Positions 48,001-51,000 of a stretch of 64,000 bases of DNA are shown one piece after another. The stretch is from Escherichia coli (GTDB lineage: Bacteria > Pseudomonadota > Gammaproteobacteria > Enterobacterales > Enterobacteriaceae). The stretch lies in the NCBI RefSeq assembly GCF_013315695.1, contig NZ_CP054353.1, one strand, 5' to 3'. The stretch's first letter is position 1; each line of letters starts with the position of its first letter. A program made the position numbers.

Positions 48001-51000
48001 CTTCGGTGGTCACGCCGAGCATACCTTCCGATCCGGTAAACAGCGCCAGCAGGTCAAAACCAGGCGAATCCAGCGCGTCCGATCCCAGCGTCAGCGCCTC
48101 GCCATCCAGCGTTTGCACTTCAATTTTCAGCAGGTTATGTACGGTTAGACCATATTTCAGGCAGTGAACGCCACCGGCATTTTCCGCCACATTGCCGCCA
48201 ATCGAACAGGCGATTTGTGAGGACGGATCCGGCGCGTAATAGAGATTATGCGGCGCAACGGCCTGGGAGATCGCCAGGTTACGCACGCCCGGCTGCACGC
48301 GCGCACGGCGACCAACGGGGTTAATGTCGAGGATCTCTTTAAAGCGCGCCATCACCAACAACACACCTTTTTCCAGCGGCAGCGCGCCACCAGAAAGCCC
48401 GGTGCCTGCACCACGGGTCACCACCGGTACACGCAGGCGGTGACAAACAGCCAGAATCGCTGTCACCTGTTCCATTTGCTTAGGCAGAACAACCAGTAAT
48501 GGACGCGTGCGATACGCGCTCAACCCGTCACACTCGTAAGGAATGATCTCCTCATCGGTATGCAGGATCTCCAGTCCAGGGACATGCTCACGCAGTGCCA
48601 TCAGTACCGATGTGCGGTCGACATCGGGTAAAGCGCCATCAAGACGCTCTTCGTACAAGATGCTCATGAGTAGGGTTCGCTTTGTTGTGTTGTGTGGCAG
48701 CTGATTTTTTCGCGCTGCTTCTGTGAACAGTTATTAAGCGGGCTTTTCGTTTTCGTCTATCTCTTTAGCTACCGGTCAGACCATTTTTTTTCCAGCTCTG
48801 TGACCTTGTCTTGGTTAACTTAATGTTAAATTGATGTAACATAATCACTTACGTGATGTGCGTGTTTTGCGAGTTAAGAACAGAAAAATTGGTCCTACCT
48901 GTGCACGAGGTCCGGGAATGAAAGATGAACGTCGCCCTATTTGCGAAGTGGTTGCAGAGAGTATCGAACGGTTAATTATCGACGGCGTACTGAAGGTCGG
49001 TCAGCCGCTTCCCTCGGAACGTCGACTGTGTGAAAAGCTCGGCTTCTCACGCTCCGCACTGCGTGAAGGGCTGACCGTGCTGCGCGGGCGCGGGATTATT
49101 GAAACGGCGCAGGGTCGCGATTCTCGTGTCGCACGGCTTAATCGGGTGCAGGACACCAGCCCGCTGATCCATCTGTTCAGTACGCAGCCGCGAACGCTGT
49201 ACGATCTGCTCGACGTTCGCGCATTGCTGGAGGGTGAATCGGCAAGGCTGGCGGCAACGCTGGGAACCCAGGCTGATTTTGTTGTGATAACCCGCTGTTA
49301 TGAAAAAATGCTCGCCGCCAGTGAGAACAACAAAGAGATTTCGCTGATCGAACATGCGCAGTTGGATCACGCTTTCCATCTCGCCATTTGTCAGGCTTCT
49401 CACAATCAGGTGTTGGTGTTTACGCTGCAATCATTGACCGATCTGATGTTTAATTCAGTGTTTGCCAGCGTAAATAATCTCTACCATCGACCACAGCAAA
49501 AAAAGCAGATCGATCGCCAGCATGCGCGGATCTACAACGCGGTGTTGCAGCGGCTGCCGCACGTCGCCCAGCGCGCAGCACGCGATCATGTGCGGACCGT
49601 GAAAAAGAATCTCCACGATATCGAGCTGGAAGGCCACCATTTGATTCGCTCGGCGGTGCCGCTGGAGATGAACAAGGTGGGAATGTGAGCCGAGTTTTCA
49701 CCCTCACCCTAACCCTTTCCCCGAGGGGCGAGGGATCGCCCCTGCGCTTAACAGGATCTGGTATTAAATCTGCTTTTCATACAATCGGTAACGCTTGTAC
49801 GGCTCTGCCCCAATGCGTTCCAGCATGTTATTCATGCCTGTATTGGTTTCGAGGATCCATGACATCTCCAGCGCATCGATCTTCCGGCGGGCAAACGGAT
49901 CGCGTAAGGCTTCAATCAATAACAACGCAATCACCGGGCCGATGCGGCTGAACTGATACTCGTCCCGCACGCCCATCAGCGGTACTCGCGCAGTTCGCAC
50001 ACCGCTGACTTTTAAACGCCACAGCAATTTTGCCCAGCCGAAGGGAAAGAGCGATCCGTTCAGATCGGCAATCGCCTCGTTGATGTTTGGCAAGCCGACA
50101 ATAAACGCGCAGGGTGCAGAATCAATCTCAGCGATGTAGATCATATCGTCCGGCACCAGATATTTAAGTTGGTCGCCCATGGTCGCGAATTCATGTTCGG
50201 TAAACGGCACAAATCCCCAGTTGTGCTGCCAGCCAGAATTGAAAATCTCACGCAGGATCTGCATCTCTTCGGCAAACCGCTGGCGATTGATGCAGCGAAT
50301 GGTCACCTTCTTACGCACCTGATCCATCAGTTTTTTTAGCGCCGGAGAGAAAGTGAGATCGGTTCGCTGCATCCACCACGCCAGTAAATCAATGCCTTTG
50401 TGATAACCCAATTGTTCAATATGCGCGGCATACCACGGTTTACCGTGCGGCATCATCGCACAGGGTGGTGTATCGAAACCTTCAATCAGTAATCCGCTTT
50501 CCTGATTGATATTCAGGCTGAAAGGCCCGCTGATCTTACTTGCACCTTGTGACTTCAACCACGCTTCCGCTGCGCCAAACAACGCGGCAAAAACCTGCGG
50601 ATCATCAATGGCGTCAATCATGCCGAAATGACCGGTATCTTTGCCGTAACGCTCGCGGTGCAAGGTATCTATTTGCGCGGTAATACGCCCAACTATCTGC
50701 CCCGCTTTTTTTGCCACCCACGCCTGCCAGATGATATGGTCCGTCCCCGGATTTTTCGCAGACAAATGCTCGTTGCGTTCAATGAATAAAGGGGGTATCC
50801 AGTTTGGATCGTCGGGATAAAGTGATGACGGAAAAGCGATAAATGCCTTAGGTGATGCTGCCAACTTACTGATTTAGTGTATGATGGTGTTTTTGAGGTG
50901 CTCCAGTGGCTTCTGTTTCTATCAGCTGTCCCTCCTGTTCAGCTACTGACGGGGTGGTGCGTAACGGCAAAAGCACCGCCGGACATCAGCGCTATCTCTG

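What the first reader, a model, noticed from the sequence alone, without database searches (positions are those of the whole stretch)
49690..49760. Unclassified GC-rich palindromic repeat downstream of glcC
The intergenic sequence between convergent glcC and yghO contains tandem cccta-type motifs and an inverted repeat (ccccgaggggcgagggatcgcccctg) that does not look like the standard REP units seen elsewhere in the window. It could be a bidirectional terminator or a member of another small repeat family.
Basis: seen in the sequence. Interest (0 to 1): 0.2.

Follow-up and report, generated by a model that had tools for sequence, protein, structure and literature searches.

The report
Degenerate BoxC repeat between glcC and yghO
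The GC-rich palindromic sequence after glcC is an ordinary, somewhat decayed copy of BoxC, a small E. coli intergenic repeat known since 1992 (also called PIT or TMECO), and it is present at this spot in only about 4% of E. coli genomes; nothing indicates that it is a terminator.

Summary
The 75-bp spacer (49689-49763) between convergent glcC and yghO holds three tandem NACCCT hexamers and an 8-bp/4-nt-loop inverted repeat.

It is not unclassified. A profile built only from 22 published E. coli BoxC sequences hits the window once, at 49696-49735 (E 2e-10). The 75 bp also matches a median of 16 other chromosomal places per E. coli genome. BoxC is the same family as the PIT element and the TMECO intrastrand-triplex motif.

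This copy is degenerate. It keeps 7 of 10 ideal base triplets against 9 of 10 in the consensus, and it has the lowest profile score of the full copies examined.

There is no T/U tract on either strand, and published tests found no promoter or terminator activity for the family.

The copy is polymorphic. K-12 and most E. coli have only 6 bp between the two genes; about 186 of about 4,540 genomes carry the element. Orthologous copies, one intact and one decayed, occur in two other Escherichia species, so it is probably old and repeatedly lost. Its presence changes the last residues of GlcC.

The family is already known and interest is low.

The parts
49696..49755 (+). BoxC repeat unit. The C-rich strand is on +, the G-rich triplex-motif strand on -. 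The unit is the core plus a conserved right arm ending ...GCGCTTAACAGG.
   Evidence: The nhmmer profile of 22 published BoxC sequences hits 49696-49735 at 36.5 bits, E 2.2e-10. The right arm aligns with the copies at glnH-glnP, yhjD-yhjE and argE-ppc. BLAST matches at other loci cover query positions 13-67, which is 49701-49755.
49700..49709 (-). Triplex domain 3 (G-rich strand GGGTGAGGGT; consensus GGGTGAGGGG).
   Evidence: Domain parsing against the TMECO type A consensus (consensus from PMC4666352 Table 1).
49710..49712 (-). Loop 2, TTA. This makes it a TMECO 'type A' copy.
   Evidence: type definition in PMC4666352.
49713..49722 (-). Triplex domain 2 (GGGGAAAGGG; consensus GGGGAGAGGG). The central G->A change breaks one Watson-Crick pair and one Hoogsteen pair.
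   Evidence: 7/10 full triplets against 9/10 in the consensus and in the orthologous E1V33 copy.
49725..49734 (-). Triplex domain 1 (CCCTCGCCCC), preceded by a 2-nt loop 1 (49723-49724; 3 nt in the consensus and in the other E. coli loci parsed).
49724..49743 (.). Locus-specific hairpin AGGGGCGA-GGGA-TCGCCCCT.
   Evidence: The MFE structure on both strands uses this stem. The CGCCCCTG arm is shared only with the orthologous copies in E1V33 and 2013C-4282, not with copies at other loci.
49674..49757 (.). The 84-bp segment that stands in place of K-12's 9 bp (CTGAGTTAG), a net gain of 75 bp. It includes the last four glcC codons, the stop codon and the BoxC unit.
   Evidence: Alignments of the window with K-12 and three other alleles. 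The GlcC C-terminus is ...EMNKVGM* here and ...EMNLS* in K-12.
48918..49688 (+). glcC (transcriptional regulator GlcC), 256-aa form. The start coordinate is inferred from the 771-bp RefSeq CDS in strain DA33135, which matches window 49300-50200 at 100% identity.
49764..50864 (-). yghO, convergent with glcC. These are the ORF-listing coordinates (TTG start); RefSeq annotates a 1,143-bp CDS, which would extend to about 50906.

Best explanation
**What it is.** The element is one copy of BoxC, a roughly 56-bp G+C-rich intergenic repeat of E. coli and related enterobacteria. BoxC was first described upstream of envM/fabI (Bergler 1992). It was later re-described as the PIT element and as the TMECO intrastrand-triplex motif.

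**Family architecture.** On the G-rich strand the family has three 10-nt domains: CCCTCGCCCC - loop - GGGGAGAGGG - TTA - GGGTGAGGGG. As isolated single-stranded DNA these fold into a hairpin plus a third strand, forming a purine-motif triplex. That was shown in vitro by others and was not detected in vivo.

**State of this copy.** It is a decayed type-A member. Three of its ten triplets are imperfect, against one in the consensus. Loop 1 is 2 nt long, against 3 nt in the consensus and in the other E. coli loci parsed. Two substitutions in the right arm created a new 8-bp hairpin specific to this locus.

**Most likely role (inferred).** It has no dedicated role at this locus. It is a passenger repeat sitting in the 3' untranslated spacer of two convergent genes, and it is not an intrinsic terminator.

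**Demonstrable consequences.**
- The glcC-yghO spacer is 75 bp instead of 6 bp.
- GlcC ends in KVGM instead of LS.
- The site is a hotspot of small rearrangements, with at least six allelic states across Escherichia.

**History (inferred by parsimony).** The copy was probably ancestral at this site and was lost by small deletions in most E. coli lineages. That fits the published association of these motifs with local instability.
For: **Family membership.**
- The profile of 22 published BoxC sequences hits the window once, at 49696-49735, E 2.2e-10.
- The 75 bp matches 76,651 places in 5,408 of 5,426 E. coli genomes, median 16 and maximum 28 per genome, with 76,608 of them on chromosomes.
- Copies fetched at glnH-glnP, yhjD-yhjE, argE-ppc, flgF-flgG, tusA-zntA and purK-ybcF align along the whole unit.
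- The same holds for the original fabI-upstream BoxC of K-12, which is identical to published eco:9_BoxC.
- Equivalence of the names BoxC, PIT and TMECO, the in vitro triplex, the negative in vivo footprint, the lack of promoter/terminator activity and the strain-to-strain variability all come from PMC4666352.

**Degeneracy.**
- 7/10 triplets against 9/10.
- Profile score 36.5 bits, against 45-59 for the other full copies.

**Not a terminator.** The scan found 0 terminator-like sites and there is no T run on either strand.

**Polymorphism.**
- K-12 has a 6-bp spacer.
- The filled junction is present in 184-186 genomes, out of about 4,540 with the locus.
- A second empty allele occurs in about 1,285 genomes.

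**Age.**
- Orthologous filled sites with the same junctions occur in Escherichia sp. E1V33 (near-consensus BoxC) and in E. whittamii (internally deleted remnant).
- The locus-specific CGCCCCTG arm is shared by the window, E1V33 and E. coli 2013C-4282.
Against: - The direction of change (ancestral presence with losses, or one insertion spread by recombination) is not proven. Neither empty allele can be derived from the filled one by a single clean deletion. A K-12-like empty allele also exists in another species, Escherichia sp. MOD1-EC7003.
- 'No function' is an inference from absence in most strains and from published negative assays on other copies. This copy, with its own stable hairpin (RNA MFE -22.6 and -31.5 kcal/mol for the 81-nt region including flanks), was never tested.
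- The copy fails a strict triplex-motif criterion of at most one mismatch, so the family's defining structure may not form here.
Confidence: 0.88

Rival explanations
1. It is a bidirectional Rho-independent terminator serving the convergent genes glcC and yghO.
For: A GC-rich 8-bp stem with a 4-nt loop lies 35 nt after the glcC stop and 20 nt after the yghO stop. It dominates the predicted RNA fold on both strands.
Against: - There is no U tract after the stem on either strand, and the terminator scan returned 0 sites.
- PIT/BoxC elements showed no terminator activity in published assays (PMC4666352).
- About 96% of E. coli with this locus lack the element and have a 6-bp spacer.
- Fold z-scores are unremarkable.
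Confidence: 0.04
2. The hairpin acts like a REP element at the RNA level. As a stable 3' stem-loop it would protect glcC (or yghO) mRNA from 3'-to-5' exonucleases and modestly raise expression in the lineages that keep it.
For: - The predicted hairpin is stable (the MFE structures that contain it are -10.8 to -10.9 kcal/mol for the 65-nt DNA and -22.6 to -31.5 kcal/mol for the 81-nt RNA).
- The stem was strengthened by two substitutions specific to this locus, relative to the yhjD-yhjE copy (ATCGCCCCTG against ATCGACCGTG).
- REP elements are known to do this (established knowledge; not tested here).
Against: No expression data exist. The element is dispensable in most strains. Family-level studies found no regulatory pattern (PMC4666352). 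The extra stem pairs could equally be neutral drift.
Confidence: 0.07
3. The copy is a recent insertion of a mobile, MITE-like element into an originally empty K-12-type site, rather than an ancestral copy that was lost.
For: - The filled allele is rare, at about 4%.
- Its flanks are nearly identical to K-12: glcC 99.5%, yghO 98.4%.
- A K-12-like empty site exists in another Escherichia species.
Against: - No terminal inverted repeats or target-site duplication flank the 84-bp segment.
- BoxC is essentially absent from phages (3 of 50,697 records) and rare on true plasmids, and is not linked to mobile elements (PMC4666352).
- Orthologous copies with the same junctions and the same locus-specific substitutions occur in E1V33, E. 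whittamii and E. coli 2013C-4282, at different stages of decay.
Confidence: 0.12
4. It is a chance GC-rich palindrome or a divergent REP/BIME unit.
For: Fold energies are not exceptional against shuffles.
Against: The profile gives E 2.2e-10. There are thousands of related copies. The element has no resemblance to the REP sequences in the window.
Confidence: 0.01

Closest known systems
BoxC repeat of E. coli (Bergler et al. 1992; Bachellier et al. 1999 survey; 56 bp, 32 copies in K-12 as tabulated in PMC2267715)
   Same: - Same sequence family: profile E 2.2e-10, with alignment over about 60 bp including the right arm.
- Intergenic, chromosomal and multi-copy.
   Different: - It is the lowest-scoring full copy examined (36.5 bits against 45-59).
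- It carries substitutions in the central palindrome (CCCTTTCCCC where the consensus has CCCTCTCCCC), a 2-nt loop, and a new hairpin in the right arm.
- It is absent from K-12, so it is not among the copies catalogued there.
PIT element / TMECO intrastrand triplex motif (Hoyne et al. 2000; Hoyne & Maher 2002; Holder et al. 2015, PMC4666352)
   Same: - Three-domain layout D1-loop-D2-TTA-D3 on the G-rich strand, type A.
- It sits at a locus that varies among strains, as that paper reports for TMECO loci in general.
   Different: - Only 7/10 triplets are intact, with two adjacent defects in the middle. It fails the 'at most one mismatch' criterion used to define TMECOs, so it may not form the triplex.
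- I could not establish whether the locus is among the 63 TMECO loci of that paper. glcC and yghO were not found in the supplement text held, which was truncated.
REP/BIME elements
   Same: Short, GC-rich, imperfectly palindromic, intergenic and often found between convergent genes. As RNA, either could form a 3' hairpin.
   Different: No sequence relationship. REP has a dedicated transposase (RAYT) and known protein partners; nothing comparable is known for BoxC.
Intrinsic (Rho-independent) terminators
   Same: A GC-rich stem-loop just downstream of stop codons.
   Different: No U tract on either strand. Published assays of the family were negative.

Membership tests
BoxC | Sequence similarity to established BoxC members | tested here: met
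   The nhmmer profile from the 22 BoxC sequences of PMC2267715 gives a single hit in the window, 49696-49735, 36.5 bits, E 2.2e-10. The element also aligns with the original fabI/envM-upstream copy.
BoxC | Dispersed, multi-copy in the chromosome | tested here: met
   A median of 16 and up to 28 BLAST places per E. coli genome, with 76,608 of 76,651 places on chromosomes.
BoxC | Unit of about 56 bp located in intergenic DNA | tested here: met
   The unit spans about 49696-49755 (60 bp) within the 75-bp glcC-yghO spacer. All seven other loci examined are intergenic.
TMECO / PIT intrastrand triplex motif | Three consecutive domains giving a triplex stem with at most one mismatched triplet and loops of 1-6 nt (ITxF criteria, PMC4666352) | tested here: not met
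   The domains and the TTA loop are present, but only 7/10 triplets are intact. Positions 5 and 6 and the terminal position are defective. The orthologous E1V33 copy has 9/10.
TMECO / PIT intrastrand triplex motif | Forms a stable intrastrand triplex as single-stranded DNA (CD/NMR) | not testable with these tools
   This was shown only for consensus oligonucleotides in PMC4666352. Watson-Crick folding of this copy prefers the alternative hairpin.
Intrinsic terminator | GC-rich stem-loop | tested here: met
   An 8-bp stem (6 G-C pairs) with a 4-nt loop.
Intrinsic terminator | Run of T/U immediately 3' of the stem | tested here: not met
   0 terminator-like sites in 49300-50200. The sequence after the stem is GCGCTTAACAGG on + and CGGGGAAAGGG on -.
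REP/BIME | Match to the REP consensus (GCCGGATGCGGCG...) | tested here: not met
   No match at the locus. REP-like sequences occur elsewhere in the window.
MITE-type mobile element | Terminal inverted repeats and target-site duplication at a filled site compared with an empty one | tested here: not met
   Comparison of filled and empty sites shows 84 bp replacing 9 bp, with no duplication and no terminal inverted repeats.
Rfam RNA families | Covariance-model match | tested here: not met
   Nothing relevant at E <= 10 in 49500-49950. Nothing reached the gathering score at the locus.

The most novel reading that the evidence does not exclude
The glcC-yghO BoxC is a long-lived presence/absence polymorphism shared across Escherichia species. 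It would have been lost at least twice independently, giving the K-12-type and AZ146-type empty alleles. It would also have been partly deleted in E. whittamii and tandemly rearranged in E. coli 2013C-4282. Each event remade the glcC stop codon and the GlcC C-terminus. If so, this locus is a naturally replicated example that BoxC/triplex motifs drive local deletion and rearrangement, and a convenient place to measure that instability.
Probability: 0.4. Interest if true: 0.3.

Novelty: already known. Interest (0 to 1): 0.1.

Why it matters
It matters little beyond correct annotation. The spacer should be labelled a BoxC (PIT/TMECO) repeat, not a terminator or a new repeat family.

Three modest points of value remain:
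- **Variable GlcC tail.** The C-terminal residues and length of GlcC (254 or 256 aa) depend on this repeat polymorphism.
- **Test locus for instability.** The site has several allelic states across Escherichia: empty (two forms), intact, decayed, internally deleted and duplicated. That makes it a tidy place to test the published, still mechanistically unexplained, link between these triplex-prone repeats and local genome instability.
- **Detection gap.** Strict triplex-motif searches will miss decayed family members like this one, whereas a sequence profile finds them.

Tried and rejected
- **Rfam.** An E-value scan of 49500-49950 (E <= 10) and a gathering-score scan of the whole window found nothing at the locus.
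- **Promoter/terminator scan.** No sites.
- **Motif searches in the window.** No second copy with up to 3 mismatches. The profile search and a relaxed three-domain regex also found only this copy.
- **Strict REP consensus pattern.** 0 hits because the pattern was too strict. Shorter REP k-mers did find REP-like sequences elsewhere.
- **Literature searches.** 'box C' + envM, 'box C' + BIME/RSA/IRU and the literal consensus string all returned nothing useful. 'boxC' + Bachellier found the key paper.
- **Holder et al. supplement.** A search for glcC/yghO found nothing, but the stored file is truncated, so this is inconclusive.
- **Deriving each empty allele from the filled one by a single deletion, or the reverse by an insertion with target-site duplication.** No clean solution, so the direction of change is left as a parsimony inference.
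- **One fold (L020:1125-1195).** I gave the wrong coordinates and it should be ignored.
- **L023 (strain BS-01).** It shows homopolymer-type errors in the repeat and was not used.
- **Outgroup scan.** It recovered four informative Escherichia loci plus one 233-bp fragment of doubtful origin, labelled Alkalicoccobacillus. E. albertii, E. fergusonii, Salmonella and Citrobacter were not recovered, so deeper outgroups are missing.
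Full report
**1. What is in the sequence**

The window is E. coli. A 901-bp stretch around the finding is 100% identical to several complete genomes in which the flanking genes are annotated glcC and yghO. glcC (+) ends with TGA at 49686-49688 and yghO (-) ends with TAA at 49764-49766. The convergent genes are therefore separated by 75 bp, 49689-49763.

Inside this spacer are three tandem hexamers, CACCCT/CACCCT/AACCCT, at 49699-49716. There is also a perfect 8-bp inverted repeat, AGGGGCGA/TCGCCCCT, at 49724-49731 and 49736-49743, with a 4-nt loop.

Predicted folding uses that stem on both strands, but the energies are not exceptional against dinucleotide shuffles, with z from -0.1 to -1.7. 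The case for a real feature therefore rests on sequence relatedness, not on folding.

**2. It is a multi-copy repeat**

The 75 bp finds 76,651 places in 5,408 of 5,426 complete E. coli genomes. The median is 16 per genome and the maximum 28, and 76,608 places are chromosomal. At other loci the matches cover query positions 13-67, about 55 bp, at 80-87% identity.

I fetched examples between these gene pairs:
- glnH-glnP
- yhjD-yhjE
- argE-ppc
- flgF-flgG
- tusA-zntA
- purK-ybcF

All share the unit (G)TTTTCCCCTCACCCTAACCCTCTCCCC-NNN-GGGGCGAGGGGAC.G.CCGTGCGCTT.ACAGG.

**3. The family is BoxC**

From memory, BoxC was first described upstream of envM (fabI). I fetched that K-12 region and found TTTTCCCCTCACCCTAACCCTCTCCCCAGAGGGGCGAGGGGACCGTATTGTG between fabI and ycjD.

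Petrillo et al. (PMC2267715) list BoxC as a known E. coli family of 56 bp and 32 copies, and recovered 22 members themselves. They give those 22 sequences in a supplement, and the fabI copy is their eco:9.

A profile HMM built only from those 22 sequences hits the 64-kb window exactly once, at 49696-49735 (36.5 bits, E 2.2e-10).

Holder et al. 2015 (PMC4666352) state that BoxC (Bergler 1992) was re-discovered as the 'PIT' element by Hoyne and Maher and is their 'TMECO' triplex motif. So the element is not unclassified.

**4. Anatomy against the family consensus**

On the G-rich (-) strand the consensus type A motif is CCCTCGCCCC-TTT-GGGGAGAGGG-TTA-GGGTGAGGGG. The window copy reads CCCTCGCCCC-TC-GGGGAAAGGG-TTA-GGGTGAGGGT.

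Counting positions that keep both the Watson-Crick pair and the reverse-Hoogsteen pair gives these results:

| Copy | Intact triplets |
|---|---|
| Window glcC-yghO | 7/10 |
| Consensus type A | 9/10 |
| argE-ppc | 9/10 |
| glnH-glnP | 9/10 |
| Escherichia sp. E1V33 (orthologous) | 9/10 |

Its profile score is the lowest of the full copies, 36.5 bits against 45-59.

It pairs the complement of domain 1 with a right-arm segment, ATCGCCCCTG. That segment reads GACTGTCCGTG in the argE-ppc copy and ATCGACCGTG in the yhjD-yhjE copy. It is therefore a locus-specific gain that competes with the D1:D2 stem.

By the 'at most one mismatch' rule used to define TMECOs, this copy is a decayed relative rather than a bona fide triplex motif.

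**5. Terminator hypothesis**

- Neither strand has a T run after the stem, and the scan found no terminator-like site.
- Published assays on the family found no promoter or terminator activity and no effect on RNA polymerase (PMC4666352, citing Hoyne & Maher 2002).
- The next section shows that the element is missing from the great majority of E. coli, where the two genes are 6 bp apart.

I rate the terminator reading at about 4%. An RNA 3'-end protection role, as for REP, cannot be excluded but has no support (about 7%).

**6. The copy is polymorphic**

In K-12 MG1655 glcC ends 6 bp from yghO. Relative to K-12, the window has 84 bp (49674-49757) in place of CTGAGTTAG. As a result GlcC ends ...EMNKVGM* (256 aa) rather than ...EMNLS* (254 aa).

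Allele counts among complete E. coli genomes:
- The filled junction occurs in 184-186 genomes, out of about 4,540 that have the locus.
- A second empty allele (…GAAGCAGGGGTGACTGCCA…; GlcC …EMKQG*) accounts for about 1,285 genomes.
- Two or three genomes, such as 2013C-4282, have a 138-bp spacer. It holds a near-consensus BoxC, a roughly 30-bp diverged copy of the yghO 3' end, and the right half of a second, decayed BoxC.

**7. Other Escherichia species**

A degenerate-pattern scan of one genome per species recovered four informative loci:

| Genome | State of the site |
|---|---|
| Escherichia sp. E1V33 | Filled, same junctions, near-consensus BoxC (45 bits), shares the locus-specific CGCCCCTG arm |
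| E. whittamii | Filled, but BoxC has lost the CACCCTAACCCT segment, apparently by slippage between CCCTC repeats; no longer scores with the profile |
| Escherichia sp. MOD1-EC7003 | Empty, K-12-like |
| E. coli SCPM-O-B-8794 (the E. coli genome recovered by the scan) | Empty, AZ146-type |

The window and K-12 haplotypes are much closer to each other (glcC 99.5%, yghO 98.4%) than either is to E1V33 (96.5% and 93.9%).

Several observations together make 'old copy, repeatedly deleted or rearranged' the more parsimonious history:
- The junctions and derived substitutions are shared across species.
- The copies show graded decay.
- No terminal inverted repeats or target-site duplication are present.
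- The family is almost absent from phages (3 of 50,697 records) and from genuine plasmids.

This is not proven. Neither empty allele can be obtained from the filled one by one clean deletion. The shared empty allele in MOD1-EC7003 also implies either an old polymorphism or inter-lineage recombination.

The picture matches the general finding of Holder et al. that TMECO loci show far more small intergenic changes among strains than control loci. In their data 39% of TMECO comparisons showed such changes, against less than 1% of control sites that had lost a short intergenic segment, and the motif was often deleted or mutated.

**8. Verdict**

Of the two interpretations, 'another small repeat family' is right: it is BoxC/PIT/TMECO, known since 1992. 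'Bidirectional terminator' is not supported.

The best-supported account is a decayed, probably functionless passenger copy of a structure-prone repeat at an unstable site. Its side effects are a longer spacer and a different GlcC tail.

Novelty: already known. Interest: low (0.1).

The most novel reading still open is that this locus is a replicated natural example of BoxC-driven deletion across Escherichia (probability about 0.4, modest interest).

Noticed in passing
L022 428-565 (E. coli 2013C-4282, NZ_CP027579.1): The glcC-yghO spacer is 138 bp in this strain. It holds a near-consensus BoxC, then a diverged copy of about 30 bp of the yghO 3' end, then the right half of a second decayed BoxC. 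About 31 bp (GCGCTTAAT.GGATCTG.T.TTAAATCTG) is directly repeated. Only 2-3 complete genomes carry this allele.
   Followed up: partly
L018 ~2225-2310 (Escherichia whittamii Sa2BVA5): The orthologous BoxC has lost the CACCCTAACCCT segment (the third-strand domain plus loop 2), apparently by slippage between CCCTC repeats. glcC ends two codons earlier (…EMK*). The remnant no longer scores with the BoxC profile.
   Followed up: partly
L016 (E. coli SCPM-O-B-8794) and L003 (Ecol_AZ146) vs window 47168-50864: A second E. coli haplotype of the glcD-glcC-yghO region is only 92.5-95% identical to the window. That makes it as divergent as other Escherichia species are (94-96.5%). Its junction allele is present in about 1,285 complete genomes. 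This suggests deep haplotypes or introgression at the glc locus.
   Followed up: no
L002 5387-5420 (K-12, 3' end of ycjD, - strand): A second, partial BoxC-like sequence (23 bits, E 5e-6) lies in inverted orientation about 140 bp from the classic fabI-upstream BoxC and overlaps the ycjD stop region. It may be a decayed partner of the type A + type B inverted pairs described by Holder et al.
   Followed up: no
window 42004-42225 (+) and 22279-22317 (-): The Rfam gathering-score scan found the sRNA C0719 (297 bits) and a JUMPstart element (58.5 bits) elsewhere in the window.
   Followed up: no
window ~35099-35195 and ~57317-57345: REP-like sequences (GCCGGATGCGGCG / GCCGGATAAGGCG).
   Followed up: no
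L017 (NZ_VLXZ01000430.1, labelled Alkalicoccobacillus porphyridii, 233-bp contig): A 233-bp contig in a Bacillota assembly carries a near-identical stretch of the E. coli glcC 3' end, at coverage below 1x by its own name. It is almost certainly contamination of that assembly.
   Followed up: no
phage records MG065686.1 and MG065691.1 (Campylobacter phages A18a, A11a): Each of these two 174-kb 'Campylobacter phage' records holds three BoxC-like matches at about 91% identity. That is unexpected for Campylobacter phages. It could reflect contaminating enterobacterial DNA or an unrelated G/C-rich triplex-type motif.
   Followed up: no
L005 ~375-390 (E. coli JNE132847) and L004 (strain M70): There is further small-scale variation next to the site. 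JNE132847 has a 12-bp in-frame deletion in the yghO 3' end just inside the empty junction. In strain M70, which carries the filled site, yghO is annotated as frameshifted.
   Followed up: no
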